Source: Azolla caroliniana (taxonomy: Eukaryota > Plantae > Polypodiophyta). From it: a stretch of 64,000 nt of DNA. A program made the translations under genes and the position numbers. The stretch lies in NCBI GenBank assembly GCA_043228905.1, contig JBHGNT010000002.1, forward strand, positions 11,718,001-11,782,000, written 5' to 3'. Each line of letters starts with the position of its first letter. The first letter of the stretch is position 1. This document shows positions 805 to 57,484 of the stretch, in pieces. The notes under the pieces are model-generated. The model had not been told where the DNA came from, made no database searches, and was given only the letters and a program-made list of their open reading frames with translations.

Positions 805-3800
805 GGTTCTCCCTTAAGAGGAAATGGGAGCGACTGATAACTTGGTCCTCACCGGAGCAAAAATGGGAGTTGCCTCTGAAACATGGGTGGGAGCGACTGT
901 TGACGTTGTCGTGAAGATTCGCGCATGCGTGTGCTACTCGAGCGACCACCGGGGTCTTGGACTGGGGAGGACGTTCGCGGAATTATCGAAGAGATGACGA
1001 TCAATGTAAGATTGGATGAAATTTGTTCACTTGAGAAGAAGAAAGATTGTACACTTGAGAAGTAGAAAAATATGAAGAAGATAAAGACGAATATAATTAT
1101 ATTGATGATAGTGGTGTTGGTGATATCACATATTGAGCCCCCCTTTACACAAGCTCCACTAGGGTTTTATAGCTCTCTTCATGCACAAAACCATGAGTTT
1201 AGAACCATGGTTTTGGGGACACGATTTTTCTTATGACATGCAAAATCCATGGGTTTAGAACCATGGTTTTGTGCACATGGTTTTCTATGGTTGTTTCGTC
1301 TATAATTCGTATATGAAAAGGAAATAAGATTATCAAATGATGTTCTTTCCACTACGGGTAGGCAGATTTGGAATCTGCTTCTAGATAGTTCGAGTCGTGG
1401 GGGGGGTTCAAACAAAGACATTAATGAAAGTATTTCGAGATATATCTCCGATGAAGCGAATACACCAAAGTTTCTAGAACACTCTAACTCACCTGTATGG
1501 GACTGTGCTAGAAGCAATTTCATTCCAAGAAACTATGTAGAATGGAATGGGTGTGCTTGAGCAAATAATTAGTATTCTTTCGTTTTCATGCTAGCAATAT
1601 CCAACTTTCTTTCGGACAACAATGAAAAAATTTGACAGAATTAAAAAGAGTTAGAGATACTTATTTAAAATAGAAAACCCAACCCTAAAAAGTTGGTTTA
1701 ACAAGCAAGCGCGTGACGAAACAAACTGAGCAATGGCCCTAGCTAGTCGATAGGGCTAAAGCGACGACAAGGAAGTAGAACTCCAACCACGGCGTAGGTG
1801 TTCTTTCCGCTGGCCGGCCACCTGTGGACATCACAGATGGATCGCATCTACGTCGTCGTCCGGGAGGCATGAGCTGCCAATTTGCGGCAGTTGTTGGCTG
1901 CATGGGCATCGTCACGATCAAAAGAGGGCATGGGAGCTCGTATTCCGGAACCTGTTAGGAAACAGGTCCCTTCGGATGGGAAGTGAGAGGAACAATACTA
2001 ATGAGCAAACTACCCATCTACAGAAGACCCGGTGAGAACCGGATGACGAGTACCCGGCAAGCGCCGGATGATGCAGGCCCAGTGAGGAGTGATCACCGGA
2101 TGAAGAGACATATTTGTAAATATGTTTTTGAGAGTCCATCGTGGCTCTATTTGTAAATAGCTGAAAAGTCATATTAGTATAAATATGCCTTAGGGAAAAC
2201 TTTTGGGTGATGTTGTTGTTATTCTTGTTGGCGCAAGATTAGTGCGCGCAACTGTGTACAAAGAGAGTGAGAGAGAGGAAGAGGTCGTTGCCTCTGTTGT
2301 AACCGCCGCCTGTGGCGAAGATAGAAAGCTCAAGGTCGTTGCTTCGGTGCTTTACCATTTTGTACATTCTGACATAGTGATAGTTTGCAATCTGTGGGTT
2401 GCCGTGGTTTTTCTCGTATTTGGGTTTTCCACGTAAACATCATGTGTACTCTTCTCTTCACTGTGTTGTGCATTCATTCCCGTTTTTCTGTGGATGATTC
2501 TAAGCTTGGTTGTGGCCGAGTGTTGCGCATAGGGAGCGTTTAGTTCCTGTCAAAGTGGTATCAGAGCGAAACGACACAGAAGATGGACAAATCGTTGGGC
2601 AGCAAGTTCAAGCTCACCGGCTCCAACTATTCAGTGTGGAAGTCGAAGATGAGGGACATGCTCGTGGTTAAAGATCTTTGGTTGCCGGTTCAGTTTGGGG
2701 ACAAGAGACCGGACAAAATCGACGCCACGATATGGGAGGTGATGCACATGAAGACAATGGCGTACATACGGTGCTTCATCGACATGAGCCTATACAACAA
2801 CTTCAATGAAGAGAGCAAGGCTCATGAGCTCTGGGAGAAGATCGGCATTATGTTTCAAAACAAAAATGTTGTTAACTAGGTTTCGGTATTCCGGAAGCTA
2901 ATAAGACTCCGGTACCAAGATGGCTCCAGTATGGCGGAGCACATGAATGCCTTCCAGGGGCTGATACACTAGGCAACATCATTGGAAGTACCTCTCGCCG
3001 ACGAGGTACGAGCGCTACTCCTGCTCGGTTCCCTCCCGGATAGCTGGGAGATGTTGGTTGTCACTTTGGGCAACGTCGGGCCGGAAGGGAAACGATTATC
3101 CCTAGCAAGAGTAAAGTCGAGCTTGCTAGATGACGAGGCGCGTCGGAAAGATAAGGATACGAGCTCCGACTCCAAAGCGCTCCTTACCGAATCGGAACGC
3201 GGAAGACAAAGGAACCATAGTCCCCAGAACCGGGAGAAGTCGGGGACACGGTCAAAGTCAAGAGGGAGGCCTACTTGCTTCTATTGCGGCAAGCCGGGAC
3301 ACTTGCAGAAGAACTGTCGGCACTTCCGAAAAGACAAGGAAACCGACAGTACCAATTCGAAGCGGACACCGGACCGGAAGGGAACGACGGCAATCGCGGC
3401 AAGTGAAGAAGAGTTGATGCTCATCACCGAGGAGAGTGAGCTAAACCTTGTCGTTGACAAGATGACGTGGGTGGTCGACTCCGGAGTGTTGTTCCACCTT
3501 ACCCCGGACCAAAAGTGCTTCTCATCCTACTCAATCGGTGATCACGGTTGTGTCCGGATGGGGAATGGAGGTACATGCCGAATTGTCGACATAAGAGACG
3601 TGTGGTTGACAACACCAACCGGATGCAAGCTGCTGCTGAAGGATGTCCGACACGTTCTGGAGGTTCGTCTGAACCTGATATTAGTCGGTCGGCTAGATGA
3701 TGAAGGCTACACGGGTACCATCCGGAACGGTGTTATGAAGTTCAGCAAAGGGAGCCTGATTGTGGCTCGGGCCCGAAAGGTCAACACGATGTACCTGATG

Positions 3801-5585
3801 AATGCCCGGTTATGTGCGGAAGAAGTGAACGTGGCATTCGACACTGCCGGTGAGCTGTGGCACAAAAGGCTGTGTCACATGAGCGAGACGGGGATGAAGA
3901 GGCTTGACGAAGACAACCTCATTCCATTGAAGAATGTGCACTTGGAGAAGTGCACTGATTGTCTGGCCGGTAAGCAAAACCGGACCTCCTTCCGACCAAG
4001 GCCACCGATGAGACGTAATGCACCACTGGAGTTGGTGCATATTGATGTGTGTCAAGTGGACACGAAGTCACATGCAGGATCGCAGTACTTCATGACGTTC
4101 ATAGATGACCACAGCCGGAAGTTGTGGGCCACACCGTTGAAGACGAAGGATCAGGTGCTATCCGTCTTCAAAGAACTCCATGCGAGAGTGGAAAGAGAAA
4201 CCAACCGGAAGCTGAAGACAGTTCGAGCAGATAACGGAGGGGAATACCGGGGGCAGTTCGAGGAGTACTGTCGCTCGAAGGGAATCCGGCTTGAATTTAC
4301 CGTGCCGAAGACGCCAGAACTAAATGTGCTGGCCAAGAGGATGAACCGGACCATAATGGAGAGGGTCTGGAGTATGTTGGCGCATGCAAAGTTACCCAAG
4401 ACGTTTTGGGCTGAGGCGCTGTCGACAGTGACGTATGTGATAAAGAGATCACCCTCAATGCCCTTGGATGGAGACACTACAGAAGGTGTGGACCGGTAAG
4501 GAAGTGTCCTACCGGCATCTGATGGTGTTCTGGTGTCTCGCATACGTGCATGTAGCTAAGGACCGGAGAGGAAAGTTAGATCCAAAGACCCGGCCATGCA
4601 TATTCCTCGGTTACGGCGACGATTAGTTCGGCTACCGAGTGTGGGACCCGGTCGACAAGAAGGTATTCCTGAGTCGAGATATTATCTTCATGGAGGACAA
4701 GACGCTCGCCGAATGGGAGTCAGAGAAGAAGATAATGAACTCCGAGTCGACCGGTAAGGATAGACTCTACAATGAATAGACCCAACCGGCAAGAGACCAG
4801 ATTGCACTCGAGGAGCCAGCCGGTTACGGTGAGGATATCGAACCGGCAGAAGAAGAAGTAGAGGAAGTTGAAACCGGAACCGGCCAAGACCCCGAATTAG
4901 ATTCGGATGAAGAGCAAATGGAGGAGCCGGTTACCGAAGCCCGAAGACGGAGATATCCTCTTAGAGAGAGAATGGCCAACCGATGAGGGGGAGCCAGAAC
5001 GCTTCGAAGAAGCGAAGGCCGACACCCACAGCCGCAAATGGTTAAGTGCCATGTAGGATGAGATGGATTCCCTGTAGGAGAACCATACGTACAAATTGGT
5101 GGAGTTGCTGAAAGGAAAGCGGGCATTCCGAAACAAGTGGGTGTACAGGTTGAAACCGGGAGATGCTGGCAACACCCCGAGATACAAAGCCAGGATCGTG
5201 GTGAGGGGGTTTTCCAGTGGAAGAAGGGTGTGGACTTCGACGAGATATTTGCCCCAGTAGTAAAGATGACCTCCATCCGGACGGTGCTGAGTATAGCGGC
5301 AAACATGGACCTCGAGGTAGAGCAGCTGGACGTGAAGACGACATTCCTTCACGGTGACCACAAAGAGGAGATCTACATGCAGCAGCCGGAAGGATTCATG
5401 GAGAAAGGGAAGGAGCACCTGGTTTGCCAGTTGAAGAAGAGCCTCTACGGGTTGAAGCAGGCCCCCCGGCAATGGTACCAGAAGTTCGACTCCTTCATGA
5501 CTGATCCAGGGTACCACAAGACGCAGGCCGATCACTACGTGTTTGTGAAGAAGTTCGAAGGAGACGCTTCCTGATACTTCTTCTG

Positions 5586-8500
5586 TGACGGGAACTACAA
5601 CGCTCCTTATGCGCAACGCTCGGCCACAACCAAGCTTAGAATCATACATAGAAAAACGGGAAATAATGAACGACACAAAGAAGAGACGAGTACGCAGGAT
5701 GTTTACGTGGAAAACCCCAAACCAAGGGAAAAACCACGGCAACCCACAAGCTGCAAACTATCACTACGCTAGAATGTACAATAGTGAGTTCACGGAGGCA
5801 ACGACCTCGTACTCACGATCTTCGCCACAGGTGGCGGTTACAACTGAGGCAACGACCTCTTCCTCTCTCTCACTCTCTTTGTACACAATTACGCGCTCTG
5901 ATCTCGCTCAGACAACAATAAACAACAACACGCTCTAAAAGTTTTCCCTAAGTCATATTTATACTAATATGACTTTTCGGCTATTTACAAATATAGCGAC
6001 GATGGGCTCTCAGAAACATATTTACGGATATGTCTCTTCATCCGGTGAGCATTCCTCACCGGGTTTGCGCCATCTGGCTCTCCGTAGCCGGGTACTCCTC
6101 ATCCGGTTCTCACCGAGTCTGCACCATCCAGCTCTCCGTAGCCGGGTACTCCTCATCCGGTTCTTACCGGGTCTACACCGTCCGGCTCTTCGTAGCCGGG
6201 TACTCCTCATCCGGTTCTCACCGGGTCTGCACCATCCGGCTCTCCGTAGCCAGGTACTCCTCATCCGGTTCTCACTGGGTCTGCACCATCCGGCTCTCCG
6301 TAGCCGGGTACTCATACAGTTTCGGCCGAGGCCGATAGTTTGTTCATCAGCACTGTTCTTCTCCCTTCCCATCCAGAGGGACCTGTCTCCCAACAAACTC
6401 CCCTTTCACTCCGGCATGGGGTGTCTTACTAGTCCGATCCTCTTCCGACATGCATCCAGCTTGTCGGGTATCAGTACTTTGGTTAGCATATCTGACCCGT
6501 TCTCGGCCGTGTGGATCTTCGTCAGTGCGAACTCCTGGTCATCTACTCTTTCCCGGATCCAGTGATACCTTCGCTGAATATGCTTCGTCCGGGAATGGTA
6601 GGCCACATTCTTAGCAAGGTGGATGGCACTTTGACTGTCGCAATAGAGTCGGTATTCATCTTGCCGGATACCGAGCTCTCCGATGAAGTCCTTCATCCAT
6701 AATATTTCCTTGCTGGCTTCCATAGCCGCCATGTACTCCGCCTCCGTGGTTGACAATGCAACCGTCTTCTACAGCCTCGACTGCCACGAAACAGCTCCCC
6801 CTGCATATGTCATTACATACCCAGATGTAGACCGGCTGGTATACACATCAGCCGACATGTCCGAATCGGTGAAACCGTCAAGTTGAGGTTTTCCGGAGCC
6901 GAATCGGAGACACATATTTGAGGTGCCCTTCAAATACCGGAGTATCCATTTGACCGCGTAAACCGGCTCATAAACCGGCTCACCACTTCGACTGCGTATC
7001 CTATATCCGGTCAGGTACACACCATTGCGTACATCCAGGTCCCGACGGCAGAGGCATATGGAATCTTCATCATATCCGCCTTCTCTGCTTTCGTCTTCGG
7101 GCTTTGCTTACCGGATAACCTGCAGTTTGCCGGAAGTGTCGATTCGACCGGTTTCGCATTTGACATGTTGAACCGCTGAAGCACCTTTGTCATGTACTTC
7201 TCCTGTGACAACCACAATTGCTTCGCTAACCGGTTCCGGATAATATGCATCCCCAACATCTGTCTTGCCGGACCCAAGTCTTTCATTGAGAAGGTCCGGT
7301 TTAGGGCCTTCTTCAGCATCCGTATTTTGACTTGGACCCGTCCAATGATCAACATATCATCCACGTAAAGAAGGAGTATCAGGAAGTCGCCTCCTTCGAA
7401 CTTCTTCACAAACACACAGTGATCGGCTTGTGTCTTGTGGTGCCCTTGATCGGTCATGAAGGAGTCGAAATTCCGGTACCATTGTCGGGGAGCCTGCTTT
7501 AGTCCGTACAGGCTCTTCTTCAGCCGGCATACCAGTTGCTCCTTCCCTTTCTCCACGAATCCTTCCGGTTGCTGCATGTAGATCTCCTCTTCGAGGTCGC
7601 CGTGAAGGAATGTCGTCTTCACGTCTAGCTGTTCTACCTCGAGGTCCATGCTTGCCGCTATACTCAGCACCGTCCGGATGGAGGTCATCTTTACAACCGG
7701 GGCAAATATCTCGTCGAAGTCTACGCCCTTTTTCTGTTGGAACCCCTTCACCACGATCCTGGCTTTGTATCTCGGGGGGTTGTCGGCATCTCCCGGTTTC
7801 AACTTGTACACCCACTTGTTTCGGAGTGCCCGCTTTCCTTTCGGCAACTCCACCATTTCGTACGTATGGTTCTCATGCAGGGAATCCATCTCGTCCTGCA
7901 TGGCACTTAACCATTTTCGGCTGTGGGTGTCATCCTTCGCTTCTTCGAAGCTTTCCGGCTCCCCCTCATCGGTCAACAGAACATGCTCTGCATCCGGAAA
8001 TCTCTGGGGGGCCATTCTCTCTCTAAGAGGATATCTCCGTCTTCGGGCTTCGGTAACCGGCTCCTCCATTTGCTCTTCATCCGAATCTGATTCGGGGTCT
8101 TGGCCGGTTCCGGTTTCAGCTTCCTCTACTTCTTCTTCTGCCGGTTCGATATCCTCACCGTAACCGGCTGGCTCCTCGAGTGCAATCCGGTCTCTTGCCG
8201 GTTGGGTCTATTCATTGTAGAGTCTATCCTTACCGGTCGACTCGGAGTTCATTATCTTCTTCTCTGACTACCATTCGGCGAGCGTCTTGTCCTCCATGAA
8301 GATAATATCTCGACTCAGGAATACCTTCTTGTCGACCGGGTCCCACACTCGGTAGCCGAACTAATCGTCGCCGTAACCGAGGAATATGCATGGCCGGGTC
8401 TTTGGATCTAACTTTCCTCTCCGGTCCTTAGCTACATGCACGTATGCGAGACACCCGAACACCTTCAGATGCCGGTAGGACACTTCCTTACCAGTCCAAA

Positions 8501-11274
8501 CTCTTTGTGGCGTGTCTCCGTCCAAGGGTACTGAGGGTGATCTCTTTATCACGTATGTCGCCGTCGACAATGCCTCAGCCCAAAACTTCTTGGGTAGTTT
8601 TGCATGCGCTAGCATACTCCAGACCCTCTCCATTATGGTCCAGTTCATCCTCTCCGCCAACCCGTTTAGTTCCGGTGTCTTCGGCACAGTAAATTCGAGC
8701 TAGATTCCCTTCGAGCGGCAATACTCCTCGACCTACCCCCGGTATTCTCCTCCGTTATCTGCTCGAACCGCCTTTAGCTTCCGGCCGGTTTCTCTTTCCA
8801 CTCTCGCGTGGAGCTCTTTGAAGACGGATAACACCTGATCCTTCGTCTTCAATGGTGTGGCCCACAACTTCTGGCTGTGGTCATCTATGAACGTCACAAA
8901 GTACTGCACTCCGGCATGTGACTTCGTGTCTACTTGACACACATCCGTATGCACCAACTCCAGTGTTGCATTACGTCTCATCGGTGGCCTTGGTCGGAAG
9001 GAGGTCCGGTTCTTCTTACCGGCCAGACAATCAGTGCACTTCTCTAAGTGCAAGTTCTTCACTGGAATGAGGTTGTCGTCTGCAAGCCTCTTCATCCCCT
9101 TCTCGCTCATATGACACAGCCTCTTGTGCCACAGCTCACCGGCAGTGTCGGATGCCACATTCACTTCTTCCGGACATAACCGGGCATTCATCAGGTACAG
9201 AGTGTTTACCTTTCGGGCCCGAGCCACAATCAGGCTCCCTTTGCTGAACTTCATGACACCGTTCCGGATGCTACCCATGTAGCCCTCATCATCTAGTCGA
9301 CTGGCTGATATCAGGTTCAATCGAACCTCCGGAACGTGTCGGACATCCTTCAGCAGCAACTTGCATCCGGTTCGTGTTGTCAGCCACACGTCTCCTATGA
9401 CGACAATTCGGCATGTACCTTCATTCCCCATCCGGACACAGCTGTGATCACCGGCTGAGTAGGATGAGAAGCATTTTTGGTCCGGGGTAAGGTGGAACAA
9501 CACTCCGTAGTCTACCACTCAGGCCATCTTGTCGCCGGCAAGGTTTATCTCACTCTCCTCGGTGATGAGCATCAACTCCTCTTCACTTGCCGCGATTGCC
9601 GTCGTTCCCTTCCGGTCCGGTCCCCTACGGTCTTTATCGTTCCGGTCCGGTGTCCGCTTCGAATCGGTGCCGTCGGTTTTCTTGTCTTTACGGAAGTGCC
9701 AACAGTTCTTCTGGAAGTGTCCCGGCTTGCCGCAATAGAAGCAAGTAGGCCTCCCCCTTGACTTTGACCGTGTCCCCGACTTCTCCCGGTTCTGGGGACT
9801 ACGGTTTCTGTGTCTTCCGCGTTCCGATTCGGTAAGGAGCGCTTTGGAGTCGGAGCTCGTATCCTTATCTTTCCGACGCGCCTCCTCATCTAGCAAGCTC
9901 GACTTTACTCTTGCTAGGGATAACCGCTTTCCTTCCGGCCCGGCATTGCGCAAAGTGACAACCAACGTCTCCCAGCTATCCAGGAGGGAACTGAGCAGGA
10001 GTAGTGCTAGTACCTTGTCGGCTAGAGGTACTTCCAATGATGTTGCCTGGTGTATCAGCCCCTGGAAGGCATTCATGTGCTCCGCCATGCTGGAGCCATC
10101 TTGGTACCGGAGTCTAGCTTCCGGAATATGGAAACCTGATTAACAACATTTTTGTTTTGAAACATTATGTCGATCTTCTCCTAGAGCTCATGAGCCTTGC
10201 TCTCTTCATTGAAGTTGTTGTAGAGGCTCATGTCGATGAAGCACCGTATGTACGCCGTTGTCTTCATGTGCATCACCTCCCATATCACGACGTTGATTTT
10301 GTCTAGTCTCTTGTCCCTGAACTGAACCGGCAGCCAGAGGTCTTTAACCACGAGCATGTCCCTCATCTTCGACTTCCACACTGAATAGTGGGAGCCGGTG
10401 AGCATGAACATGCCGCCAAACGATTCGTCCATTTTTTGTGTCGTTTCGCTCTGATACCACTTGACGGGAACTACAACGCTCCTTATGCGCAACGCTCGGC
10501 CACAACCGAGCTTAGAATCATACATAGAAAAACGGGAAATAATGAATGACACGAAGAAGAGACGAGTACGCAGGATGTTTACGTGGAAAACCCCAAACCA
10601 AGGGAAAAACCACGGCAGCCCACAGGCTGCAAACTATCACTATGCTAGAATGTACAATAGTGAGTTCACGGAGGCAACGACCTCGTACTCACGATCTTCG
10701 CCACAGGCGGCAGTTACAACTGAGGCAACGACCTCTTCCTCTCTCTCACTCTCTCTGTACACAGTTACGCGCTCTGATCTCACGCAGACAACAATAAACA
10801 ACAACACGCTCTATAAGTTTGCCCTAAGTCATATTTATACTAATATGACTTTTCGGTTATTTACAAATATAGCGACGATGGGCTCTCAGAAACATATTTA
10901 CGGATATGTCTCTTCATCCGGTGAGCATTCCTCACCGGGTCTGCACCATCCGGCTCTCCGTAGCCGGGTACTCCTCATCCGGTTCTCACCGGGTCTGCAC
11001 CATCCTGCTCTCCATAGCTGGGTACTCCTCATCCGGTTCTTACCGGGTCGGCACCATCCAGCTCTCCGTAGCCGGGTACTCCTCATCCGGTTCTCACCGG
11101 GTCTACACCATCCGGCTCTCTGTAGCCGGGTACTCCTCATCCGGTTCTCACCGGGTCTGGACCATCTGGCTCTCCGTAGCCGGGTACTCCTCATACAGTT
11201 TCGGCCGAGGCCGATAGTTTGTTCATCAGCACTGTTCTTCTCCCTTCCCATCCGGAGGGACCTGTCTCCCAACA
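5586..11274 (-). mobile_element. Element C: copia of the same family as B, nested antisense in the RT of B
   Basis: LTRs 5586-6395 and 10462-11274. TSD TTCTG/TTCTG. iMet PBS at about 10448-10459. ORFs 9519-10088 (gag), 8733-9518 (PR/INT), 7011-8069 (RT, LLYVDDML), 6406-6756 (RNase H). Confidence 0.96.
6058..6320. repeat. 54-bp tandem repeat (about 5 copies) in the element C LTR; also at 10935-11197
   Basis: Unit CCGGGTCTGCACCATCCGGCTCTCCGTAGCCGGGTACTCCTCATCCGGTTCTCA, which gives the 18-aa periodicity seen in the ORF track. Confidence 0.9.
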
Positions 11275-12924
11275 TTCTGTACGTGGACGACATGTTGATC
11301 GTCGGATGGGACCAAGACAAAATACGGGTGCTGAAGAAGGCTCTCAACCAGACCTTCTCAAAGAAAGACTTGGGTCCGGCAAGACAGATGTTGGGGATGC
11401 ATATCATCCGGAACCGGCCAACGAAACAATTGTGGCTGTCACTGGAGAAGTACGTGATTGCCGTGATTCAGCGGTTTAACATGTCAAATGCGAAACCGGT
11501 CGGATCAACACTTTCGGCAAACTGCAGGCCCGAAGACGAAAGTAGAGAAGGCGGATATGATGAAGGTTCCATATGCCTCTGTTGTTGGGAGCTTACTGTA
11601 CGCAATGGTGTGTACTTGACCAGATATTGGATACGCAGTCGGAGTGGTGAGCCAGTTTATGAGCAATCCTGGCAAGGAGCACTGGAACATGGTCGAATGG
11701 ATACTCCAGTACTTGAAGGGCACTTCGAACATGTGTCTCCGATTCGGCTCCGGTAAACCTCAACTTGACAGTTTTACCGATTCGGACATGTCGGTTGATG
11801 TGGATACTAGCCGGTCTACATCTGGGTATGTAATGACATATACAGGGGGAGCTGTTTCATGGCAGTCAAGGCTGCAGAAGACGGTTGCGCTGTCAACCAC
11901 AGAGGCGGAGTACATGGCGGCTGTGGAAGCCGGTAAGGAAATATTATGGATGAAGGACTTCATCGGAGAGCTCGGTATCCGGCAAGATGAATATCGGCTC
12001 TACTGCGACAGTCAAAGTGCCATCTACCTTGCTAAGAATGCGGCCTACCATTCCCGGACAAAGCATATCCAGCGAAGGTATCACTGGATCCGGGAAAGAG
12101 TAGATGACCAGGAGTTCGCGCTGACGAAGATCCACATGGCCGAGAACGGGTCAGATATGTTGACCAAAGTACCGATACCCGACAAGCTGGATGCATGTCA
12201 GAAGCGGATCAAACTAATAAGACATCCCATGCCGGAGTGAAGGGGGAGTTTGTTAGGAAACAGGTCCCCCCGGATGGGAAGTGAGAGGAACAGGTCCCTC
12301 CGAAACCGGATGAGGAATACCCAGCTATGGAAGACCCGGTGAGAACCAGATGAGGAGTACCTGGAAACGGAAGACCCGGTGAAAACCAGATGACGAGTAC
12401 CCGGCAAGCGCCGGATGATGCAGGCCCAGTGAGGAGTGCTCACCGGATGAAGAGACATATTCGTAAATATGTTTCTGAGAGTCCATCGTGGCTATATTTG
12501 TAAATAGCCGAAAAGTCATATTAGTATAATAATGACTTAGGGCAAACTTTTGCGTGATGTTGTTGTTATTCTTGTTGGCGCAAGATTAGTGCGCGCAACT
12601 GTGTACAGAGAGAGTGAGAGAGAGGAAGAGGTCGTTGCCTCTATTGTAACCGCCACCTGTGGCGAAGATAGAAAGCTCGAGGTCGTTGCTTCGGTGCTTT
12701 ACCATTTTGTACATTCTGACATAGTGATAGTTTGCAGTCTGTGGGCTGCCGTGGTTTTTCCCGTATTTGGGTTTTCCACATAAACATCCTGTGTACTCTT
12801 CTCTTCACTGTGTCGTGCATTCATTCCCGTTTTTCTGTGTATGATTCTAAGCTCAGTTGTGGCCGAGCGTTGCGCATAGGGAGCGTGTAGTTCCTGTCAG
12901 AACCCTCACCTGATGAGATGCGGG

Positions 12925-13007
12925 GAGCCGTATGACGGGAAACTGTCACGAGCGGTTTTGAATTGGTGGTCAAGCAGGAATTCCTAACCTGATTGGCCAA
13001 CCAAAAC
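12925..13007 (+). ncRNA. Group II intron 3' end (domains V-VI), mitochondrial origin, non-functional copy
   Basis: GAGCCGTATGACGGGAAACTGTCACGAGCGGTTTT matches the domain V hairpin consensus. A domain VI-like hairpin follows and ends in AC at 13007. Confidence 0.88.
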
Positions 13008-13100
13008 CGAAATAAGACTCCGGAAAAGTCGTCGCCGTTGTTAAGAAATAGTTTATTTACATGAGTAAGAAACTGACGTATTTCCATCGGTTGCTTCCGT
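13008..13100 (+). pseudogene. rps14: Mitochondrial rps14 3' exon fragment in unedited form
   Basis: Translates RNKTPEKSSPLLRNSLFT*VRN*RISIG. This registers without gaps on the rps14 motif K-L-S-x-L-P-R-N-S-S-x-x-R-V-R-N-R-C-I-F-T-G, and most differences are C/T changes. Confidence 0.78.
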
Positions 13101-13331
13101 TTACAATTTGGTGGAGGTACCCTAGGCCATCCTTGGGGGAACGCAACCGGCGCTATAGCTAACAAAGTGGCTTTGGAGGCTTGTGTTCAAGCCCGTAATG
13201 AAGGCCGTGATCTTGCTCGTGAAGGTAACGAGATTATTCGTGAGGCTAGTAAGTGGAGTCCCGAACTAGCTGCCGCTTGTGAAGTATGGAAAGAGATCAA
13301 ATTTGAGTTTGAGACAATCGATACCCTGTAA
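13101..13331 (+). pseudogene. rbcL: Plastid rbcL 3' end (nuclear plastid-DNA copy)
   Basis: Translates [76 protein letters not shown]. Confidence 0.97.
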
Positions 13332-13446
13332 TCGATTTTCATAAACTTTTGATACCACTAAGCGATCATGGGGGACCCGTGGAATGGGCAGGAAATATCG
13401 GGAGAGAATCTATCTTTACCGTACCCCTTCCCCATATACGGAAATA

Positions 13447-13520
13447 GAATTGGTCGCTCGTTGGACGAAGGCACATGGTCCTGTACCATGGATCTAGGGG
13501 TTCGATCCCCCATCAATTCA
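13447..13520 (+). tRNA. trnR: Plastid trnR(CCG)-derived tRNA pseudogene; the anticodon now reads CTG
   Basis: Cloverleaf with acceptor GAATTGG/TCAATTC, anticodon arm CATGG-TCCTGTA-CCATG and T arm GGGGTTCGATCCCC. It lies between rbcL and accD, the known trnR-CCG position in non-angiosperm plastomes. Confidence 0.75.
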
Positions 13521-13848
13521 AACTCAAAAGTAGAGGGCAGGGCGAGGACAGGTTGATTAGATCGAATCAACGATTTACTGGATCAGTATTAAAAATGTTG
13601 TGACATATTGTACGACAATACGTTGTAGAATAAATCCTCCGACTGTCTTTTAGTTTGTTGGGCCATCAAACCCGTCAACAGCTTAAAAAATCCAGCTGGG
13701 AACTATGCCAATTAGATAATATTTAATGAAATTTGTTTGATGGTACATAAAATTATCCATTCAATTATTTTGTTGATGAGATAGGTGTAATCTAAACACC
13801 AAAAAAAATTCCTTGGGTTAGGGGTGAAAAGTAGACGAGGATAAATTT

Positions 13849-14055
13849 ATGTCTCTAACAGATTGGTTTGAAGATAGATGCAAATTCAGTGGGTTGATCA
13901 TCGGAGATTTTCTAGAAGACACTTCGGAGGATTCGAGTGAAAATGGAAAAGACAAGGAGAAAAAAATTAATATCAATACTCATAAGGGATTATGGGCCCG
14001 GTGTGACAATTGTGAGAATACACTTTATGTGAAATTTCTTAAACAGAATAAGAAC
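13849..14055 (+). pseudogene. accD: Plastid accD 5' fragment with a short, non-seed-plant-type N-terminus
   Basis: MSLTDWFEDRCKFSGLI...KGLWARCDNCENTLYVKFLKQNK; truncated where LTR sequence resumes. Confidence 0.92.
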
Positions 14056-16081
14056 TTTACATTATATAATAGTTGTCTTAGTGGTAAGGCAAACATCTTG
14101 TATCTTAGAGGTGCAAGGTTCAAACTTTGCTTGTACCCCTCTGTATGAACTCAAGTGTCACTAGGCCTTATGCTTATTTGCTAAGTGCATGTGTAATGTT
14201 GCACATCCTTGATTTATTCGTCTCACTCGGTTTCACACCGTAGCCGAAAATTGTCACAACATCCACCCTCACCAAACCTGCACATCCTCCGGTATGTGCC
14301 GAGAAAGGTGAAGAGGTGAGATCTTTGGCAACGGTGATCAACCGAGTTCCTCCGCATGCTCGTCTAACTTCATCTTCCATTTCGAGTATGCCCAATATTT
14401 TGAACCGAACCACCGTAGCCACCCAACCCAATCCACCATATCCGGTGCTCACACCTTCTTCCCCGGTCGGTTGTAGTAGATCTACCGAACGATGTCGTCG
14501 ATCCGACCACTCTTCCTTCGTCAACCACGCGTATCCTTTGATTGGACTCGTGGTCACTCCTTGAGCTCACCGTCTTCAACTGGGTGTTGTGGATCGTTCG
14601 TGTCGATCTCCGATTAGGCCGGGTTTGCCCTTGTCCGGATCGGTTTCTGCCGATCGCTTCTTGGCTCGGTTGGCCTTTGTCTGCATTCGCATTTCGCCAA
14701 GTCGGGCTCGACCGATTGATTCCGGCCTGGTCAGCCCCCTTTTGGATCGGGATCGTTCGATCAATTTCCGCTGAATCAGTGTCTTCCTCATCGCCCTTCC
14801 AGTCCTCCGCTTTTTCGTCAACACATTCTGTCTCTCCAGTCTCACGTTGGCGCACGTGCGCAACCGCCGAAGTCTCTAGAATAGATGTGGGGATATCCTT
14901 TCGTCCTCGATCTTCTTCCTCCTTTTGTTGGGCCTTCGTCTTCGCGTCACCACCTTCTGTCTCTCCGGTCTCACGTTGGCACACGGGCGCAACCGCCGAA
15001 GTCTTTGGAACAAGTGTGGAGAAAGTCTCGACATGGCTATCCGCCGTCGACTCGTCCATAGCCATCTCCAAGTCGATGTCGTTTGTCATGGCTACCTCCT
15101 CAATCACGTCAGACTCAAACACTTTATCTCCCTCGATCATGCAAGCTTTTCTCATGCTTGCACCTTCATCACCCGATGTTTCGTACACAATGCATGTTCC
15201 GAAACATTTATCCTCCCTCGAAGTGGCGTTCGCCGTGCTCGAGTCATCGGCCTCCTCCTTGGCCATTGTTTCTTTGTAAGACAAGAAGGTGACTTGTTTC
15301 GCACCTTCTCTCTCGGTACTGTCATACCGAACTTGAGCCTTTGTATCGACCACTTCATTAACCCACATTTGTTGGGAGGTCTCTTCTTCCTCGATCACCA
15401 TTCGCCTCGGTTTTGTCTCCCTTCTAAGCTTCATTTCTTTCGTTGGTGGCGCATTGCTACATCTCGTCCCTCTTCGATCATCCCTCATGGGTTGTCTTGT
15501 TGTCATCGATATTCTCACTCACCCCTTATCGTGTAGTCGACATACACTTTCCACTTTGCTCCAATCCTTGATGAGGCCATTTGCACCGTTATCTTCTTCG
15601 AGTTTGAGGCCAATGGCCATCCTTTCCATTCGATCGATTGACTTCACGAACATAAGGACCTTATCGAACCCCACCAATCGTTGTTTCTGCTCCGAGAGTT
15701 GAGAAAAACGATGCTCAAAGTCTACGCACCTTGGTGGGTCTTCGCCGATGTCACCCATTGGTCAAAATTGCGTCGATCTCGTTCCTTCAGTCTCTCATAG
15801 CCATATTCCTCCAATAGAGCCTTCTCAAAAGTCGCCCACGAATCATGAGCTTCTATAAGCTCTTTTACATCTTTGAAGATCGGTTGAGACACCACCCGAC
15901 AAAAGTGCTCTAGCCTCATAGCTTCGTCCACACCTCTTGAATTCATCTCCGCATTGTAGACTTTTAGAAAATTTTGGACTTCGGCGCCGTTGAAATAACT
16001 CACTCGCTTGACTACCCTCTCAATGGCTTGTTGGGCTTCATTTCATCTTTTCCCTTCTCTCAGAAACTCCATCATCCTTTT

Positions 16082-19000
16082 TGTAGAAAGTAGCGTGCGG
16101 AAGCAGGTATGAAGACAGAACAGAGGAAGGAAACACAGGTTCAATGGAGAGCTTGGGCTTACACGGTATACGCGGGAGAGACAGAGAGAGTAGACACAAA
16201 GAAAACTATATTCAATAATAATACTCAGTCTGTACATAAGACGTGCTCAGTGAGCACTTTTATACAAGTCCTAGAAGGATTGACCGAAGTACTGACAATA
16301 CTTCAATGCTCATCAAGAGCTCCTACACTAACTCCCAAATATATTCCTCACGGAATATCTTTCCTAACGACCTCCCGGTTTATGCACTCGGCCTAACCGA
16401 TTGGTCCCAACCGATCCGGTCCTCAGCTTCTTCAGCCGATCCGGCCGATGTTGAGCTTGTCTCTCAACACTCCCCCTCAAGCTCAATTCGAGGCTCTTCG
16501 GGATCCTCGGGCTCACGGCTCCGGTTCCTCCTGGCTTCACGCCTCGCTCACGCTCCTCGACCTGTTCGTCTCCGCATGCTTCGACCCTTCCGGTCGGCTT
16601 GTATGCTCATGCGGCCCTTATAAGCTCTTCTGTTGTTGCGGTGTCGACGCTTCTCCTGCTACCTTTTCTTCCGCTTGGGCCTCAGTTGATTCAGCGTATC
16701 TGAATCAAACATCCGAACCGACTCGGCTGCCTCCGATCGGTTTTCGCTCTCGTCCGAGTTGGCTGTCTCCAACTCGTCTTCGGTCTTCTCGCCCTCGATG
16801 GCGTCATCTCCCCTATGCGTGGTTGGCTTCAGCTCTCTCCTTCGGCTAGTCCCCTTCTGTTCGCTTCCGAACTTTTCCACGGGTCCGCCCTCGGCTTCTT
16901 CAACCGATCCGAAGTCGAACTTGTCAACCGACTCGGTGCCGCGGTCTCCGCTCCTTTCCTGTTGCCTTGCTTGGTCGTTCGGGACTGTTCTCCCCCTCAA
17001 GTTCGGCACGTCAAGGTGATGCAATCCGAGTGCACCTGAGAATTGCCGCAACTTGTCCAGACCAAGAGGCTTGGTGAAGATGTCGGCAGCCTACCGATCC
17101 GACGGAACGTACTGAAGTTCGACTTCACCGGAAAGGACACGCTCACGGACGAAATGGTAGTGCACCTCAATGTGCTTGGTCCGTGCGTGGAAGACGGGGT
17201 TCTTCGCGAGTTGGATGTTGTTGAGGTTGTCGCAGTAGATCGTCGTTGGATCGGACACCTCCTCTTGCAGGTCCTTAAGTAGCCGCTTCAACCATATGGC
17301 TTCGCATGTCGCGACAGCCGCTCCTCGGTACTCCGCTTCGGTGCTCGATAGTGCAACTATCGGCTGCTTCTTACTGCTCCACGCAATCGCGGCACTCCCG
17401 AGGGAGAACGTGTATCCAGACGTGGATCGGCGATCGGCAGCGTTGCCAGCCCAATCAGCATCGGTGTAGCCGACTAACTGCACGGCTGCACCGGTCCGAT
17501 ATAGCTGTCCTCGGTCCTTAGTGCCACTTACGTACCGTAGTACGCGTTGCGCACACTGAAGGTGCTCCTCGGTAGGTCGCGCCATGAACTGACTGATCAC
17601 TCCAACCGGATAACTGAGGTCGGGTCGGGTGAAGGTCAAGTATATGAGGCTTCCGACAATTTGTCGGAACCTCGTCGGGTCGCATACCTTTCCCGTATCG
17701 GGACGAAGCTTGACGGTTCTGTCCAGAGGAGTCGAGACGGTCTTATAGTCGGCCATCCCGAATTTGAAGCGCATACTCAGCACATAGTGACGTTGGTTGA
17801 TCAATATGCCTTCGGGGGTACGGATCACTTCGATCCCGAGGAAGTAATGAAGGTCCCCCAGATCCTTCATGTCGAACAATGCCGCAACCTAGAGCTTCAC
17901 GCGGTCGATTTCACCTAGGTCGGCGCCGGTGATGACCAAGTCATCAACATATAGTAAAATACTAACCGGTCCGAGTCGACCTTTCCGGATGAACAGGGAA
18001 GAGTCCGATTTTGACGTGACGAAGCCCATCCGACGCAGTTGTTGTGTGATCTTCGCGTTCCAGGCACGCGGGGCTTGCATCAGTCCGTAAAGGGACTTCT
18101 TCAGTCGGCATACTGCCGAGCAGTTCGTTCCGGAGTGAAATCCGGGGGGTTGTACCATGTACACTTGTTCCTCAAGGTCACCTTGTAGGAACGCATTCTT
18201 TACATCCATTTGATGTAAGTGCCACCCCTTGGCTACGGCTACTGCGAGCAAAACATGGACGGTCGTCATTTTTGCGACCGGCGCAAACGTCTCATCGTAG
18301 TCGATGCCGTGTTTCTGCGATAGCCCCTTGCCACTAGTCGAGCCTTGTACCGGTTGACCGAGCCATCGGTGTTGTACTTGACCTTGTACACCCACCTACA
18401 CCCGATCGGTTTTACCCCTTTTGGTGCGTCAACCAGGTCCCAGGTCTCGTTCTCTGCCAATGCGTGCATCTCTTCCTCCATCGCGGCATGCCAATTCGCG
18501 TCTTTAGCCGCTTCTGCATAGCTCTCCGGCTCACGCACTTCCACTACACGGGTCATGTACGCATAGTGATGCGCCATGTACTCGTTATATCCGAACCGCA
18601 AAACAAGATTCTTCTGGCGGGTAGATCGGCGTAATCTCACATCAGCCGATGTCGAGACCTTCTCGGTCGACGCGGACTTCATCTTTAAAGACCTATCACC
18701 GGTTCCCTCGGAGTCGGACTCGCGTCGGTCTGACTCGTTCCTTTCCGTGCCGGAATCCGACACCTTCTTCTTCCCTTTCTCTTTGCGCGTAAGCCGTCTC
18801 CTCGGCTTCCTGCGTGGGGAATGCACGGCCGAGTCTCCACTACTCGCCGGCTCTTCATCGAACTGGTCGTACCGACTCAGTCGTCCAATTGGTCCACTTA
18901 ACCGGAGTGAAATCGGACTCTCTTCGCGGGTCTCGATTTCGGGCTCATCCGAAGGCATCTCGGCCTCGCTGACCTCATCGTCAGAGCTCGGATTGGAGTC

Positions 19001-28643: not shown

Positions 28644-28664
28644 GACCAGCAGGGGAGGACGAAG

Positions 28665-36200: not shown

Positions 36201-36220
36201 ATCCTATGAATTATAATAGA

Positions 36221-36283
36221 TGGTGTGATGGTTAAGAGCTCGACCCATATACCATAAGGTTATGGGTTCGAGTCTTGCCATAT
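36221..36283 (+). promoter_or_regulatory. tRNA-like A/B-box cassette at the U3 end of the element E LTR; also at 42337-42399
   Basis: TGGTGTGATGGTTAAG-N28-GGTTCGAGTC. Confidence 0.6.
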
Positions 36284-41011: not shown

Positions 41012-41075
41012 TAATGTAATGGTAAGGTTGGGGTTTGTCAACGTGGAGGTGCAGAGTTCGAATCACGCCCTGCGC
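41012..41075 (+). promoter_or_regulatory. tRNA-like A/B-box cassette in the solo LTR
   Basis: TAATGTAATGGTAAGG-N27-AGTTCGAATC. Confidence 0.55.
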
Positions 41076-41130
41076 AGTAGTGAGTATTTCCTTTGTTTTT
41101 TACATTTATGTCTCTTTATCCGGCTCTTCC

Positions 41131-41245
41131 TTGCCGGTATGCCGTTTTCTTCCTTGCCGGTATGCCGTTTTCCTCCTTGCCGGTCTGCCGTTTTCCTACT
41201 TGCCGGTATGCCGTTTTCCTCCTTGCCGGTATGCCGTTTTCTTTC
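41131..41245. repeat. 23-bp tandem repeat, 5 copies (TTGCCGGTATGCCGTTTTCCTCC)
   Basis: Directly visible inside the solo LTR. Confidence 0.92.
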
Positions 41246-44200
41246 GGTTCTCACCGAGCACTCCATTCTCTATCCGGAGGGACAAAAATATAATTTCCGC
41301 ATAGTGTGCAACCTACACTACGACACCGCAGTGTAGGTAGAGGCTGGACGATTGCCTTGACGCAATCGCCGGATCTTGTTGATTGTCGTCCTGATGCTGT
41401 CGGTGTCTCCAAAGCAGGCTTTAAACTCACTAATAAAATCTTCAAAGTTATTAAGCAAGGGCGATTGTTTTTCTAGAAGCGGGGCAAACCATGCTAAGGT
41501 TGAGCCGCTAAGCAACGTGCCTATTAAGCCGACTCGGGATGCATCAGTGGGATATCGGGAAGGATGCATTTGGAGGACTAATCGTACCTGATTAAGGAAT
41601 CCCCTGAATTGCGATCGCGTTCCATCAAATTTCACAGGAAGTCCAATCTTCGGCTCTTTATGAAATCCTTGGGGACTTGATCCTTGTTGTTGCAATGCCG
41701 CTTCGAGTTGTTGCACCCGTAATGCTAACTCCCCATGTTGTTTCTGCGTTTGTTGTTTTTCTAGAGCGATTTGTTGCAAATCCCCTATCAGCCGTTGGTT
41801 TTCTTGTTCCAAGGCAACAAATTTTTCTTTTAAGCACTGTAGCTCGGAGAAAACGGATTGATATTCTTGGGCGTTAACAATAGCCATAGTATAGGGAAAA
41901 GGGTAGGAGGATGAGGGAGAACGACAAGTAGGTTGGAGGACTGGGAAATCGGTTCAAACTGTCAAGAATAGTACTAAAGCAAAGATGGAATTAGTACTAA
42001 AGAAGAGCAGTACTATTAGTACTAAGAGGACGGGACTACGTAAGACTCCCGAGAGAGAGAGAAAGAGAGAAGCGAAAAGAGAGATAGCGAGAATGAGAGA
42101 GAGAGAAGGATGATGACAGCAGCTCTTATATTATATGAAAGTTAAGTACAAATCGGCTAAGAGGCTTAAGACTGGTGTTGAACCAATTTGGTTCAACATA
42201 ATGCTTAGTGCCTTCTTTTATAGTGTTGTCAGGAGTAATCTTGAAACTTCTAGAATGTTCCAGAGAAATCTGGAATATACATTACTTTCTTATAATAAAA
42301 TATAAATGAAAATAATATCTTATGAATTACAATAGATGGTGTGATGGTTAAGAGCTCGACCCATATACCATAAGGTTATGGGTTCGAGTCTTGCCATATC
42401 ATGACACATAGATCTGATGTTGGTACAAATGGGGGTCCAACCCTCACATATCTTCGTATGACCATGCAAAAACATCCCGGAATTCTTTGAGTAGCTCCAC
42501 CATTGCCGTTTTCTATTCCTATGGCATTTCCTTGCCACTTTTGCTGGTCTCGACGCCTCTCATATCCTGAGGTCGACTTCTTCCAGATTCGATGCATTTA
42601 TTCTTTGGGATACTGCCATTTCCCTCTCCAGTGATTCCTGTGCCTGTCGTAGTTCCCGCACTGCCTCCCTATCCGGCTCATCCAATTCGTCCTCCTGGTG
42701 CATAACGTACGGCGTGACGGCTTCAACAACATCTACTTCAAATAACGACACAATCTTGGGGTGTTGCTCTAGATATCGGTCGACCACGTCATCTGACAAT
42801 CCATCCAGCATGTTAATACTCTCCGCGTATAGCGGTGTTAGCTACTTAGTTGTACCATCCCATTGTTCTGTCGACACCCACACCTTAGTTTTCCCTCGCC
42901 GGAAGGTAATTACGTTCTTTTGCCAGTTTTGCTTAATATGCACTGTTCGAATACATGGTCATCATAATAACAAGGGATAAGCCCCCAATGCGTTAGGTTG
43001 CAGTACCACTGCGGATATTCGGAACGCGTGCCCTCCGATTGTAATGTCAAGGTCCTGGATGAGTCTGGTTCACCGGACCGAACTGGTGTCTGCCCGATTC
43101 CCATTCGTTGATGCCTAGTGTATCACATGTCCGCTTGCTTATTACATTTACATGGGAACCTCCGTCAATAATGGTTCCTGGTATCTCGCTTCCTTTTATT
43201 ATCACCATGATTGTCATACTACTTGTGTCCACTACGGTTGGTCTATCCTCTTGATTGGAAAATAATGTTGGTGTCGACTCCGGATTCTATGGTGTTATTG
43301 CCGATTTAAGGCCTGCTGTAAATTGAGGAACCAATTGTAATAGGTGGCTGAGAGGTAGCATAATTTGGCATTATTGCAACGCTTGCCAGGTTGAGTCGTC
43401 ATCTGTGGTCTCGAGTGGTTCCTCTGGAAACTTGGTCTGCTCTTTTACTTTGGCCATGTTCCGTTCATTGGCCTTCTGTATCCACTTGGTAGCCTGCTTT
43501 CGGATTGCCTCCTAGGTCTCCCACTCTACAGCTTTCCCTTTCGATCGGGTGGTGACTTGTTGTACATCCATGACTTCTGCGGTCACCATGTTCATTGCCG
43601 GTTGTTTCTCATTAGACTTGACCGGGCACTAGCTACTTTTCGGATATTGCTTGATTCCCCTTATTTTGAGCTACCAGGCTGGATATCGGGATTCATCCGG
43701 TTGGTATCTTCCGGCCTTCATTGCTCTGGTTGTGGGACGACCGCGTTTATATCCAGCTCCCAACGGTATTCCTGGGCATGTTCACGATGCTCATCTCGGC
43801 GAAAAATCCCCCTATGATTCTGATTGCATCGGTGATTACGGTATCCCTGGCGTTCCGGTTTTCATCTGTCCTGGTCTATGTAGGCTCGCCGTTCTAGGTA
43901 CCTTCTATCATCCCTTCGCCGATCATAATTCAGGGAGTAATCACACTCGTAGCGATCCCGATCGTAGTTGTCTCTTCGTCTGTCCTCATACCGATCACCA
44001 CATTCTGGTCAATATCATTCATCCCTCCATATATGTTCCTTGTTCGGTCCTTGCTCACTTCGGAGCTCAATATGTCGGACTGGTGCCACTTGCCGATTTA
44101 ACGAATTGTACTCACACTAGTCTATAGTGTGTGACCGGGAGTGGCACAATATGCACTGAGTTTGCATTGTGCATTCTAATGTGGAGTGTCCGGGGTTGAG

Positions 44201-55800: not shown

Positions 55801-57484
55801 TGTGTTGCTAACCGATGAGGGGGAGCCGGAAAGCTTCAAAGAAGCAAAGAGAGACACCCACAACTGCAAGTGGTTGAGTGCCATGCAGGACGAGATAGAT
55901 TCCCTGCATGAGAACCACACGTATGAATTGATGGAGTTGCCGAAATGGAAGAGAGCACTCCCTCCGGAACAAGTGAGTGTACAAGCTGAAACTGGGAGAC
56001 GCTGGAAATCCACCAACATACAAAGCCCGTATCGTGGTGAAGGGATTCTAGCACAAGAAAGGAGTGAACTTCGATGAGATCTTTGCCCTAGTAGTAAAAA
56101 TGACATCCATCTGTACGGTATTGAGCATAGCGACAAGCATGGACCTCGAGGTAGAGCAACTAGACATCAAGACGGCATTCCTACGTGGCGACCTTGAAGA
56201 AGACATCTACATGCATCAACCGGAAGGATTTGAGAAGAAAGGGAAGGAGCACCTAGTGTGCCAGCTGAAGAAGAGTTTATACGTATTGAAGCAAGCCCCC
56301 CGGCAATGGTATTGATAGTTCAATTCCTTCATGACCGACCAAGGGTACCACAAGATGCAGGCCGATCACTGCGTGTTTGTGAAGATATTTGACGGAGGAG
56401 ATTACCTGATACTTCTCCTATATGTGGATGATATGTTGATCGTCAGACGAGACCAAAACAAGATTCAGATGTTGAAGAAGGCTCTGAACCGGACTTTCTC
56501 AATGAAAGACTTGGGTTCGGCAAGACAGATATTGGGAATGCACATCATCCAGAACCGATCGAAGAAGCTATTGTGGTTGTCACGGCAGAGGTATGTGACA
56601 AAGGTGCTCCAACGGTTCAATATGTCGGAGGAGAAACCGGTTGGATCGACACTTCCGGCAAACTGCAAACTATCCGGAAAACAAAGCCCGAGGACAAAGG
56701 CGGAGAAGACGGATATGATGAAGACTCCATATGGCTCTGTCATCGGAAGTTTGATGTACGCAATGGAATGTACCCGGCCGGATATCGGATATGCAGTCGG
56801 CGTGGTGCGCCGGTTCATGAGCAATCCCGGAAGAGAGCACTGGAACGCGATCAAGTGGATACTCCAGTATTTGAAAGGCACCTCGAGTATGTGCCTCCGG
56901 TTCGGCTCCGTTAATCCCCAACTTGACGGATTCACCGATTCGGATATGTCGGCTAATGCGGATACCAGTTGATCTACATCCGGATATGTCATGACTTATG
57001 CAGGGGGAGCAGTTTCGTGGCAGTCAAGGCTGCAGAAGACGGTTGCATTGTCAACCACGGAAGTGGAGTACATGGCAGTTGTAGAAGCCAACAAGGAGAT
57101 AATATGGATGAAGGACTTCATCAGAGAGCTACAGATCCAACAGAAGGAATATCGGCTCTACTACGACAGTCAAAGTGTCATCCATCTTGCAAGGAATGCG
57201 GCCTACCATTCTCAGACGAAACATATCCAGCGGAGGTACCACTAGATCCGGGAGAGAGTAGAAGATCAAGAGTTCGTGCTAACGAAGATCCACATTGAGG
57301 AGAATGAGTTGGATATGCTGACCAAGGTGTTGACAACCCACAAGTTGGACGCGTGTCAAAAGCAAATCGGGCTAGCGAGACATCCCATGCCGGAGTGAAG
57401 GGGGACATTGTTGGGAAATCAGTCCCTCCGGATGGGATCCGGTTATAAATGGAGATGACCCGGTGAGAACCGAAAGAGATCCGG
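52889..57484 (+). mobile_element. Element K: copia related to the B family; its 3' LTR is interrupted by J
   Basis: 5' LTR 52889-53457; PBS TGGTATCAAAGC at 53461-53472. Gag-pol fragments at 53488-57398, with an internal deletion near 54915. 3' LTR starts at 57409. Confidence 0.92.

What the first reader, a model, noticed from the sequence alone, without database searches (positions are those of the whole stretch)
903..57484. A gypsy lineage that appears to integrate at CpG: 4-bp TSDs, all NCGN
Seen: every insertion with TGTCG...CGACA-type ends has a central CG in a 4-bp target. X1 has ACGT (903-906), with the right copy ATGT (22465-22468), consistent with CpG decay. X2 has ACGC/ACGC, the solo LTR has CCGC/CCGC (40461-40464, 41326-41329), and the left flank of J is CCGG (57481-57484; its other flank is outside the window). 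These cover three distinct LTR sequences. The six complete copia TSDs (GAACC, TTCTG, CTTTT, GACTC, AATAG, AAACC) are 5 bp and none contains CG. Established: plant LTR elements mostly make 5-bp TSDs with weak sequence preference. Inference: this integrase, which has no visible chromodomain, may read CpG or methyl-CpG at the dyad of the target, steering insertions into methylated repeats. The sample is only four sites.
Basis: partly seen in the sequence, partly recalled or inferred. Interest (0 to 1): 0.82.

Follow-up and report, generated by a model that had tools for sequence, protein, structure and literature searches.

The report
Phygy-type retrotransposons inserting at CG
These jumping genes of a non-seed land plant really do insert at four-base sites centred on CG, but that habit is already published for the moss retrotransposon group they most likely belong to (Phygy), and it likely comes from the integrase reading the sequence itself rather than methylation.

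Summary
All four flanks are as reported, and empty-site paralogues show a 4-bp duplication for X1, X2 and the solo LTR. It holds beyond the window: 20 of 24 left flanks of related elements in metagenome contigs are NCGN and 3 more are CpG-decayed (P about 3e-24). In 4 of 4 sequencing runs the majority flank of the X LTR end begins ACGT. But it is known: Neumann et al. 2019 (PMC6317226) report NCGN 4-bp TSDs for Phygy (186 elements, tRNA-Trp primer, no chromodomain). J, X and the solo LTR fit every Phygy feature tested except size; tree placement against Phygy references was not possible. Methyl-CpG reading is untested. No methyl-reader domain was found in 16 related polyproteins. T is avoided before the CG (1 of 60) although TCG sites decay like other CGs, as in 4-bp-stagger retroviral integrases. 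Two insertions lie near host-gene sequence. Small additions: the motif is VCGB, and X is a gag-only non-autonomous partner.

The parts
903..906 (.). X1 left TSD copy ACGT
   Evidence: empty-site tandem unit aligns without a gap
907..22464 (-). X1, gag-only non-autonomous LTR element; 3' LTR 907-1326 + 14053-14261 (split by a 12.7-kb insert), 5' LTR 21832-22464 (601 of 633 aligned columns identical), PBS 21811-21826; carries a nested copia at 16082-21749
22465..22468 (.). X1 right TSD copy ATGT (CpG-decayed form of ACGT)
27975..27978 (.). X2 left TSD ACGC
27979..31493 (+). X2, young gag-only element: LTRs 27979-28620 and 30852-31493 (99.8% identical), PBS 28626-28641, gag-like ORF 28776-30290, PPT ending 30851; no pol
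31494..31497 (.). X2 right TSD ACGC
40461..40464 (.). solo LTR left TSD CCGC
40465..41325 (-). Solo LTR (861 bp) in the gag of a chromodomain gypsy; its first 304 bases are 98% identical to the PBS-adjacent LTR end of L121, so same PBS type and minus orientation
41326..41329 (.). solo LTR right TSD CCGC
57481..57484 (.). J visible flank CCGG
57485..64000 (-). J, decayed autonomous-type element: 3' LTR 57485-58099 with PPT just beyond it, integrase about 58173-59330, RH and RT about 59600-61679, gag-protease 61726-63600, PBS 63654-63669, 5' LTR from 63676 running off the window; broken by stops and frameshifts; no chromodomain
35844..42406 (-). Control: chromodomain (Tcn1-like) gypsy hosting the solo LTR; 5-bp TSD CATGG/CATAG without CG

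Best explanation
J, X1, X2 and the solo LTR are non-chromodomain gypsy elements, most likely of the Phygy clade, whose insertions duplicate four bases centred on CG, and the integrase likely selects that site by reading target sequence and shape directly, without needing methylation. Shown: 4-bp TSD, central CG, avoidance of T at position 1 and A at position 4 (VCGB), shared PBS and PPT, no chromodomain or methyl-reader domain, no pol in X. Inferred from retroviral intasomes: a 4-bp stagger kinks the target at its single central step, favouring a pyrimidine-purine step and disfavouring T at the joining base. An extra base-specific contact, not identified here, would narrow that step to CG. Inferred: X is mobilised in trans by a J-type integrase. 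Because TE DNA here is GC-rich, CG sites are plentiful in nested TE stacks; TSD CpGs later decay (ATGT, ATGG, GCAT).
For: Published NCGN, 4-bp TSD and tRNA-Trp PBS for Phygy, the only one of 15 gypsy rows with NCGN. The same PBS in X1, X2 and J, 3 matches against 0 in 100 shuffles, and in the solo LTR's relative L121. Flank-blind LTR-start scan of 121 distinct metagenome loci: 20 of 24 left flanks NCGN, 23 of 24 CG or single-deamination forms, background CG 0.042. Majority flank of the X LTR end begins ACGT in 4 of 4 runs (14, 20, 13 and 21 contigs; overall agreement 0.44-0.46, so the flanks are otherwise diverse). T next to the CG in 1 of 60 symmetrised positions against 34% background, P 6e-10. 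TCG transitions 43 of 279, against 126 of 632 at other CGs (P 0.12) and 104 of 2406 at CHH, so T avoidance is not a methylation pattern. Serrao 2015 (PMC4422553, abstract and sections 6 and 14 read) reports T/A avoidance and central YR for 4-bp-TSD retroviruses. 0 of 16 related polyproteins show Chromo, MBD or SRA. Precedents for CG-centred targets: Ginger1 CCGG/CCGT and Drosophila ZAM CGCGCg with direct integrase binding in vitro. One ACGT insertion lies about 0.5 kb upstream of an open PPR frame (L068) and one near a PIP5K fragment (L020).
Against: No Phygy reference sequence could be placed in the tree (one search has none). J would be about 6.8 kb, below the Phygy range of 7.7-10.0 kb. The tRNA-Trp identity of the PBS is recalled, and three look-ups found nothing. 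General YR preference in retroviruses is only about 63% above random, so it cannot alone explain near-exclusive CG: the CG-specific contact is unexplained, and 5-methylcytosine could be it. CG and CHG in this window's TEs show excess transitions (0.186 and 0.137 against 0.043 for CHH), so many target CGs were probably methylated. One left flank is ACTA (doubtful LTR start), one (L053) may be a deleted PPT, and 4 of 7 right-end candidates were not NCGN (TCTT twice, GTGG, TGGA; they look like broken primer sites).
Confidence: 0.7

Rival explanations
1. The integrase (or a partner) needs or strongly prefers methyl-CpG at the dyad, which would steer insertions into methylated repeats in place of a chromodomain.
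For: Near-exclusive CG exceeds general YR flexibility. TE CpGs here are methylated, judged by decay. At least 12 of 24 flanks match TE-like sequence of the window, and all 4 window sites lie in repeats. A paper on the effect of CpG methylation on retroviral integration in vitro exists (Kitamura 1992, seen only as a reference line; not held; its result is recalled). Phygy domains are reported as enriched at centromeres of a liverwort (PMC12885004, passages).
Against: No methyl-reader domain in 16 polyproteins. CHG is also methylated but is not the target. The flanking-base bias does not follow methylation. Insertions occur near genes. ZAM integrase binds its CG-rich site in vitro as a bacterially expressed protein on plasmid and oligonucleotide DNA. 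The window is almost all TE, so nesting there says little.
Confidence: 0.15
2. The elements are a separate tRNA-Trp-primed, 4-bp-TSD lineage, sister to Phygy or unnamed, sharing the NCGN habit by descent or convergence.
For: Size below the Phygy range. Named relatives come from liverworts and a fern (Riccia, Calypogeia, Adiantum), and none of the 240 listed hits was named Physcomitrium. Phygy was defined as specific to that moss.
Against: The combination of NCGN, 4 bp, PBS type, no chromodomain, no aRH and no extra ORF matches only the Phygy row. TatI shares the primer and TSD length but always has aRH, which is not seen in J or 16 relatives. Most homologues are unnamed, so missing names are weak evidence.
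Confidence: 0.12
3. The pattern is chance, mis-set LTR ends, or selective survival rather than targeting.
For: Only four sites in the window; the window is CG-rich (o/e 0.94, from the counts).
Against: Empty-site paralogues fix the 4-bp length. 20 of 24 independent flanks and 4 of 4 runs agree. Decay removes CpG rather than enriching it.
Confidence: 0.01

Closest known systems
Phygy clade, non-chromovirus Ty3/gypsy (Neumann et al. 2019, PMC6317226; passages and supplementary file MOESM5 read)
   Same: 4-bp TSD with NCGN preference; no chromodomain, no aRH, no extra ORF; pol spanning most of the internal region; PBS recalled as tRNA-Trp; non-seed plant host
   Different: J is about 6.8 kb against 7.7-10.0 kb; the motif here resolves to VCGB; gag-only non-autonomous partners (X); phylogenetic membership not tested against references
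Ginger1 DNA transposons (Bao et al. 2010, PMC2836005; passages read)
   Same: Gypsy-type integrase, TGT termini, 4-bp TSD CCGG (75%) or CCGT/ACGG (24%), all within VCGB
   Different: DNA transposons with TIRs in animals, no RT or LTR; narrower motif
ZAM retrotransposon of Drosophila (PMC2527525; passages read)
   Same: Gypsy integrase with a CG-rich target (CGCGCg); 4-bp TSD in 3 of 3 sites (PMC3276498 table); integrase binds the target directly
   Different: Animal, retrovirus-like element; six-base alternating motif rather than one central CG; needs a second nearby binding site
4-bp-TSD retroviral intasomes PFV, MoMLV, PERV, XMRV (Serrao et al. 2015, PMC4422553; abstract, sections 6 and 14)
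   Same: Central YR step favoured, T/A disfavoured at the TSD edges; PFV integrase is the nearest solved integrase structure to J's relatives
   Different: Only modest YR enrichment and no CG exclusivity. The residue aligned to PFV Ala188 is Glu in 67 of 67 homologues in which the motif was found, of 120 screened; retroviruses have small neutral residues there
TatI and Selgy clades
   Same: 4-bp TSDs in non-seed plants; TatI uses tRNA-Trp
   Different: TatI has aRH in 100%, Selgy uses tRNA-Ala; no NCGN preference listed for either

Membership tests
Phygy | Ty3/gypsy order gag-protease-RT-RH-INT | tested here: met
   J frames and Pfam; intact relatives
Phygy | No chromodomain | tested here: met
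   None in J or in 16 of 16 relatives; the control gypsy in the window scores Chromo E 3.6e-13
Phygy | 4-bp TSD | tested here: met
   3 of 3 complete insertions, with gap-free empty-site paralogues
Phygy | NCGN target | tested here: met
   4 of 4 in the window (left copy); 20 of 24 left flanks in relatives; 4 of 4 runs
Phygy | tRNA-Trp primer binding site | tested here: inconclusive
   One conserved PBS in X1, X2, J and 122 loci. Its match to plant tRNA-Trp is recalled; no tRNA gene was found to test it and no paper prints the string
Phygy | No aRH and no extra ORF; pol spans the internal region | tested here: met
   J integrase frame ends at 58173, about 70 bases from the LTR; single RH in relatives
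Phygy | Length 7.7-10.0 kb (range of 186 Physcomitrella elements; the authors call size relatively insignificant for classification) | tested here: not met
   J about 6.8 kb from LTR 615 bp and 5' LTR start 63676; table
Phygy | Clusters with P. patens Phygy elements in RT-RH-INT trees (the formal definition) | not testable with these tools
   The reference FASTA and element table are too large to be served; the other supplement searched gave no Phygy rows in the part held. The quick tree only shows J nested with metagenome, liverwort and fern RTs, far from the chromodomain gypsies
TatI | aRH domain | tested here: not met
Tcn1 chromovirus | Chromodomain, 5-bp TSD, mostly self-priming | tested here: not met
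Ginger1 | TIR DNA transposon without RT | tested here: not met
   LTRs, PBS, PPT and RT present

The most novel reading that the evidence does not exclude
Phygy-type integrase is a methyl-CpG reader built into the catalytic target-binding groove: it recognises 5mCpG at the dyad of a VCGB site and so replaces the chromodomain as a way of homing to silenced DNA, also mobilising gag-only partners. My searches found the NCGN motif reported but no test of its methylation dependence.
Probability: 0.12. Interest if true: 0.8.

Novelty: new member of a known kind. Interest (0 to 1): 0.18.

Why it matters
As it stands this extends a published trait (Phygy NCGN targeting) to another non-seed plant and its relatives, and sharpens the motif to VCGB. 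That gives a usable marker for annotating Phygy-type solo LTRs and gag-only partners. If the CG had to be methylated, it would be an integrase that senses an epigenetic mark at the insertion point, which would matter for how TE islands and centromeres build up. That test is straightforward and I found no paper doing it, but the evidence here leans towards plain sequence readout.

Tried and rejected
No genome is held, so no TSD census and no right flank for J. Reads laid on the whole X LTR gave no per-copy flanks; the 101-base stretch did, but only as a majority line. One homologue search ran in the wrong frame and found nothing, as did one structure search. Viral contigs hold neither the PBS junction nor RT relatives. 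The protein atlas gave no answer. Cluster members carried no organism names. tRNA gene look-ups were empty. Papers: no hit for the PBS string or DUF4100; Kitamura 1992 not held; GingerRoot has 6-bp GC-rich TSDs without a motif and was rejected as a match; the P. patens TE expression paper (PMC7466625, passages) did not tie RLG2 or RLG3 to Phygy in what I saw. Rows dropped before the 20 of 24 count: of 26 left candidates, 2 (L004, L035+) were LTR ends read backwards; L017 duplicates L018; many of the 122 loci were too short to hold an LTR start. Dropping the two doubtful rows (L047 ACTA, L053) gives 19 of 22. Right ends: 3 of 7 NCGN, the other 4 ambiguous. A test of whether C at TSD position 1 is avoided (its methyl group would clash like thymine's) was uninformative, because the outer C of CCG decays less than CAG/CTG (24 of 292). 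The positions just outside the TSD show only weak trends (C at -1 12 of 26, P 0.005; A/T at -2 19 of 26, P 0.06; uncorrected). The tree is the quick version; the careful search did not finish. Supplements not seen that bear on membership: Neumann MOESM1 and MOESM3, and the uncut Jedlicka MOESM7.
Full report
Observation. The window is a stack of nested LTR elements. The 4-bp length does not depend on where one draws the LTR ends. With one copy removed, the host flanks align without a gap to empty-site paralogues for X1, X2 and the solo LTR, 3 of 3. At the window's CG frequency four of four has P 1e-5. The six copia TSDs are 5 bp as stated, but their lack of CG is not significant (P 0.17 for 0 of 7). 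A chromodomain gypsy in the same window (35844-42406) has a 5-bp TSD without CG, so the trait belongs to one gypsy lineage. J's other flank lies beyond the window and no genome is held.

Anatomy. J (minus strand) has gag, protease, RT, RH and integrase in gypsy order, broken by stops and frameshifts, with no chromodomain. Its LTR is 57485-58099, so the element is about 6.8 kb. X1 and X2 are 3.5-kb-type elements with one ORF whose N-terminal part matches the gag of a J relative (P0022, E 4e-15 pairwise) and no pol. They must borrow an integrase (inference). X1, X2 and J share one primer binding site (3 matches, 0 in 100 shuffles) and nearly the same polypurine tract. The solo LTR's first 304 bases are 98% identical to an LTR end followed by the same PBS in L121. 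So the three LTR sequences are one lineage. Named RT relatives are from Riccia, Calypogeia and Adiantum. In a quick tree J sits among these and metagenome copies, far from the two chromodomain gypsies. The host is a non-seed land plant by these relatives (inference); I did not identify it.

Test outside the window. LTR starts were modelled only from PPT-adjacent copies, blind to flanks (shuffled maximum 9.9 bits in 60 trials, threshold 14). Of 26 non-PPT candidates in 121 distinct loci, 2 were LTR ends read backwards. Of the other 24, 20 have NCGN, 3 have NTGN or NCAN and 1 doubtful start has ACTA, against a flank CG frequency of 0.042 (P 3e-24). One decayed case, GCAT in L022, lies where the related solo LTR reads GCGT. 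Right ends gave 3 NCGN of 7, the other 4 resembling broken primer sites. For the X family itself, contigs leaving the LTR end in four public runs from three organism codes have a majority flank beginning ACGT in 4 of 4 runs (14, 20, 13 and 21 contigs).

Refinement. Over 30 sites (23 left flanks, 3 right flanks, 4 window sites), symmetrised, the base before the CG is A 27, C 19, G 13, T 1 of 60, against 34% T in the flanks (P 6e-10). The motif is VCGB.

What is known. Neumann et al. 2019 write that, except for Phygy elements, which have an insertion preference to the NCGN motif, plant TSDs are highly variable (PMC6317226, passages). Their table lists Phygy as 186 elements, 4 bp (100%, NCGN), 7656-9968 bp, tRNA-Trp 81%, no extra domain. 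Jedlicka et al. 2019 also find 4-bp TSDs commonest in Phygy and GC-rich centres in 4-bp TSDs (PMC6911290, passages). Our elements meet gene order, no chromodomain, no aRH or extra ORF, 4 bp and NCGN. They fall short on size, which the authors call relatively insignificant for classification. The PBS is tRNA-Trp by recall only (empty). The formal criterion, tree position against reference sequences, could not be run. CG-centred targets also occur in Ginger1 (CCGG 75%, CCGT/ACGG 24%) and ZAM. An earlier scan note on a fungal window (e1-10582392) saw NCGN too and led me to Ginger1; I checked only the Ginger1 text.

Mechanism. Retroviruses with 4-bp TSDs favour a pyrimidine-purine central step and avoid T and A at the TSD edges, largely independent of chromatin for PFV (PMC4422553, abstract and sections 6 and 14). 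VCGB fits this, and PFV integrase is the nearest solved integrase. That explains the edges and the YR class, not the exclusivity of CG, which needs a further contact. The position aligned to PFV Ala188 is Glu in 67 of 67 homologues where the motif was found, of 120 screened; this is a candidate, untested. On methylation: paired copies in the window show C-T differences at 169 of 911 CG, 78 of 571 CHG and 104 of 2406 CHH sites (12 alignments), so TE CG and CHG are likely methylated. TCG decays at 43 of 279, not significantly below other CGs (P 0.12), yet is avoided as a target; CHG is methylated but not targeted. None of 16 related polyproteins has a Chromo, MBD or SRA hit. At least 12 of 24 flanks match TE-like sequence of the window, with no background for comparison. 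Of 8 flanks scanned with Pfam, one lies about 0.5 kb upstream of an open PPR frame and one near a PIP5K fragment. These points lean towards sequence readout but none measures methylation at the moment of insertion. A paper on CpG methylation and retroviral integration in vitro exists (reference line only), so an enhancing effect of methylation stays open. Searches for a test of this in Phygy found none.

Verdict. A real and strong feature, already described for the clade these elements most likely belong to: new member of a known kind, interest 0.18. Methyl-CpG reading has probability about 0.12-0.15 and would deserve 0.8.

Noticed in passing
window 1327-14052: X1's 3' LTR is split by a 12.7-kb insert with 3 LTR bases missing and no duplication. 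Its non-TE parts are organelle-like: a group II intron 3' end (Rfam RF00029, 12923-13007), then frames that I recognise from recall as the rbcL C-terminus and accD start. Likely an organellar insertion later invaded by copia elements.
   Followed up: partly
window 27979-31493 and 907-22464: X is a gag-only, pol-less LTR element (recalled term TR-GAG); X2's LTRs are 99.8% identical, so it moved recently. Related gag-only sequences occur in L002, L022, L025, L040, L058.
   Followed up: partly
P0002 and homologues, integrase core: Conserved D-R-G-E after the second catalytic Asp puts Glu where PFV has Ala188; retroviruses have small neutral residues there.
   Followed up: partly
L022:1375-1420; L043; L046; L012; L039: Several insertions are into elements of the same lineage, including one 30 bases inside an LTR end at a GCGT site.
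   Followed up: partly
window 41200-41290 vs 57400-57484: The solo LTR carries about 40 bases resembling the copia LTR region next to J's insertion site (85%, E 1e-4), beside a 23-bp tandem array.
   Followed up: no
window 42408-46340: A decayed element with gag-, zinc-knuckle- and protease-like frames and a 340-bp tandem duplication (45139-45840), with no Pfam hit for its relative in L060; lineage not determined.
   Followed up: no
window 28190-28330 and 31105-31215: The X LTR holds an internal imperfect inverted repeat.
   Followed up: no
window-wide: The outer C of CCG decays less (24 of 292) than CAG and CTG (54 of 279), P 1e-4, suggesting weaker methylation at CCG.
   Followed up: partly
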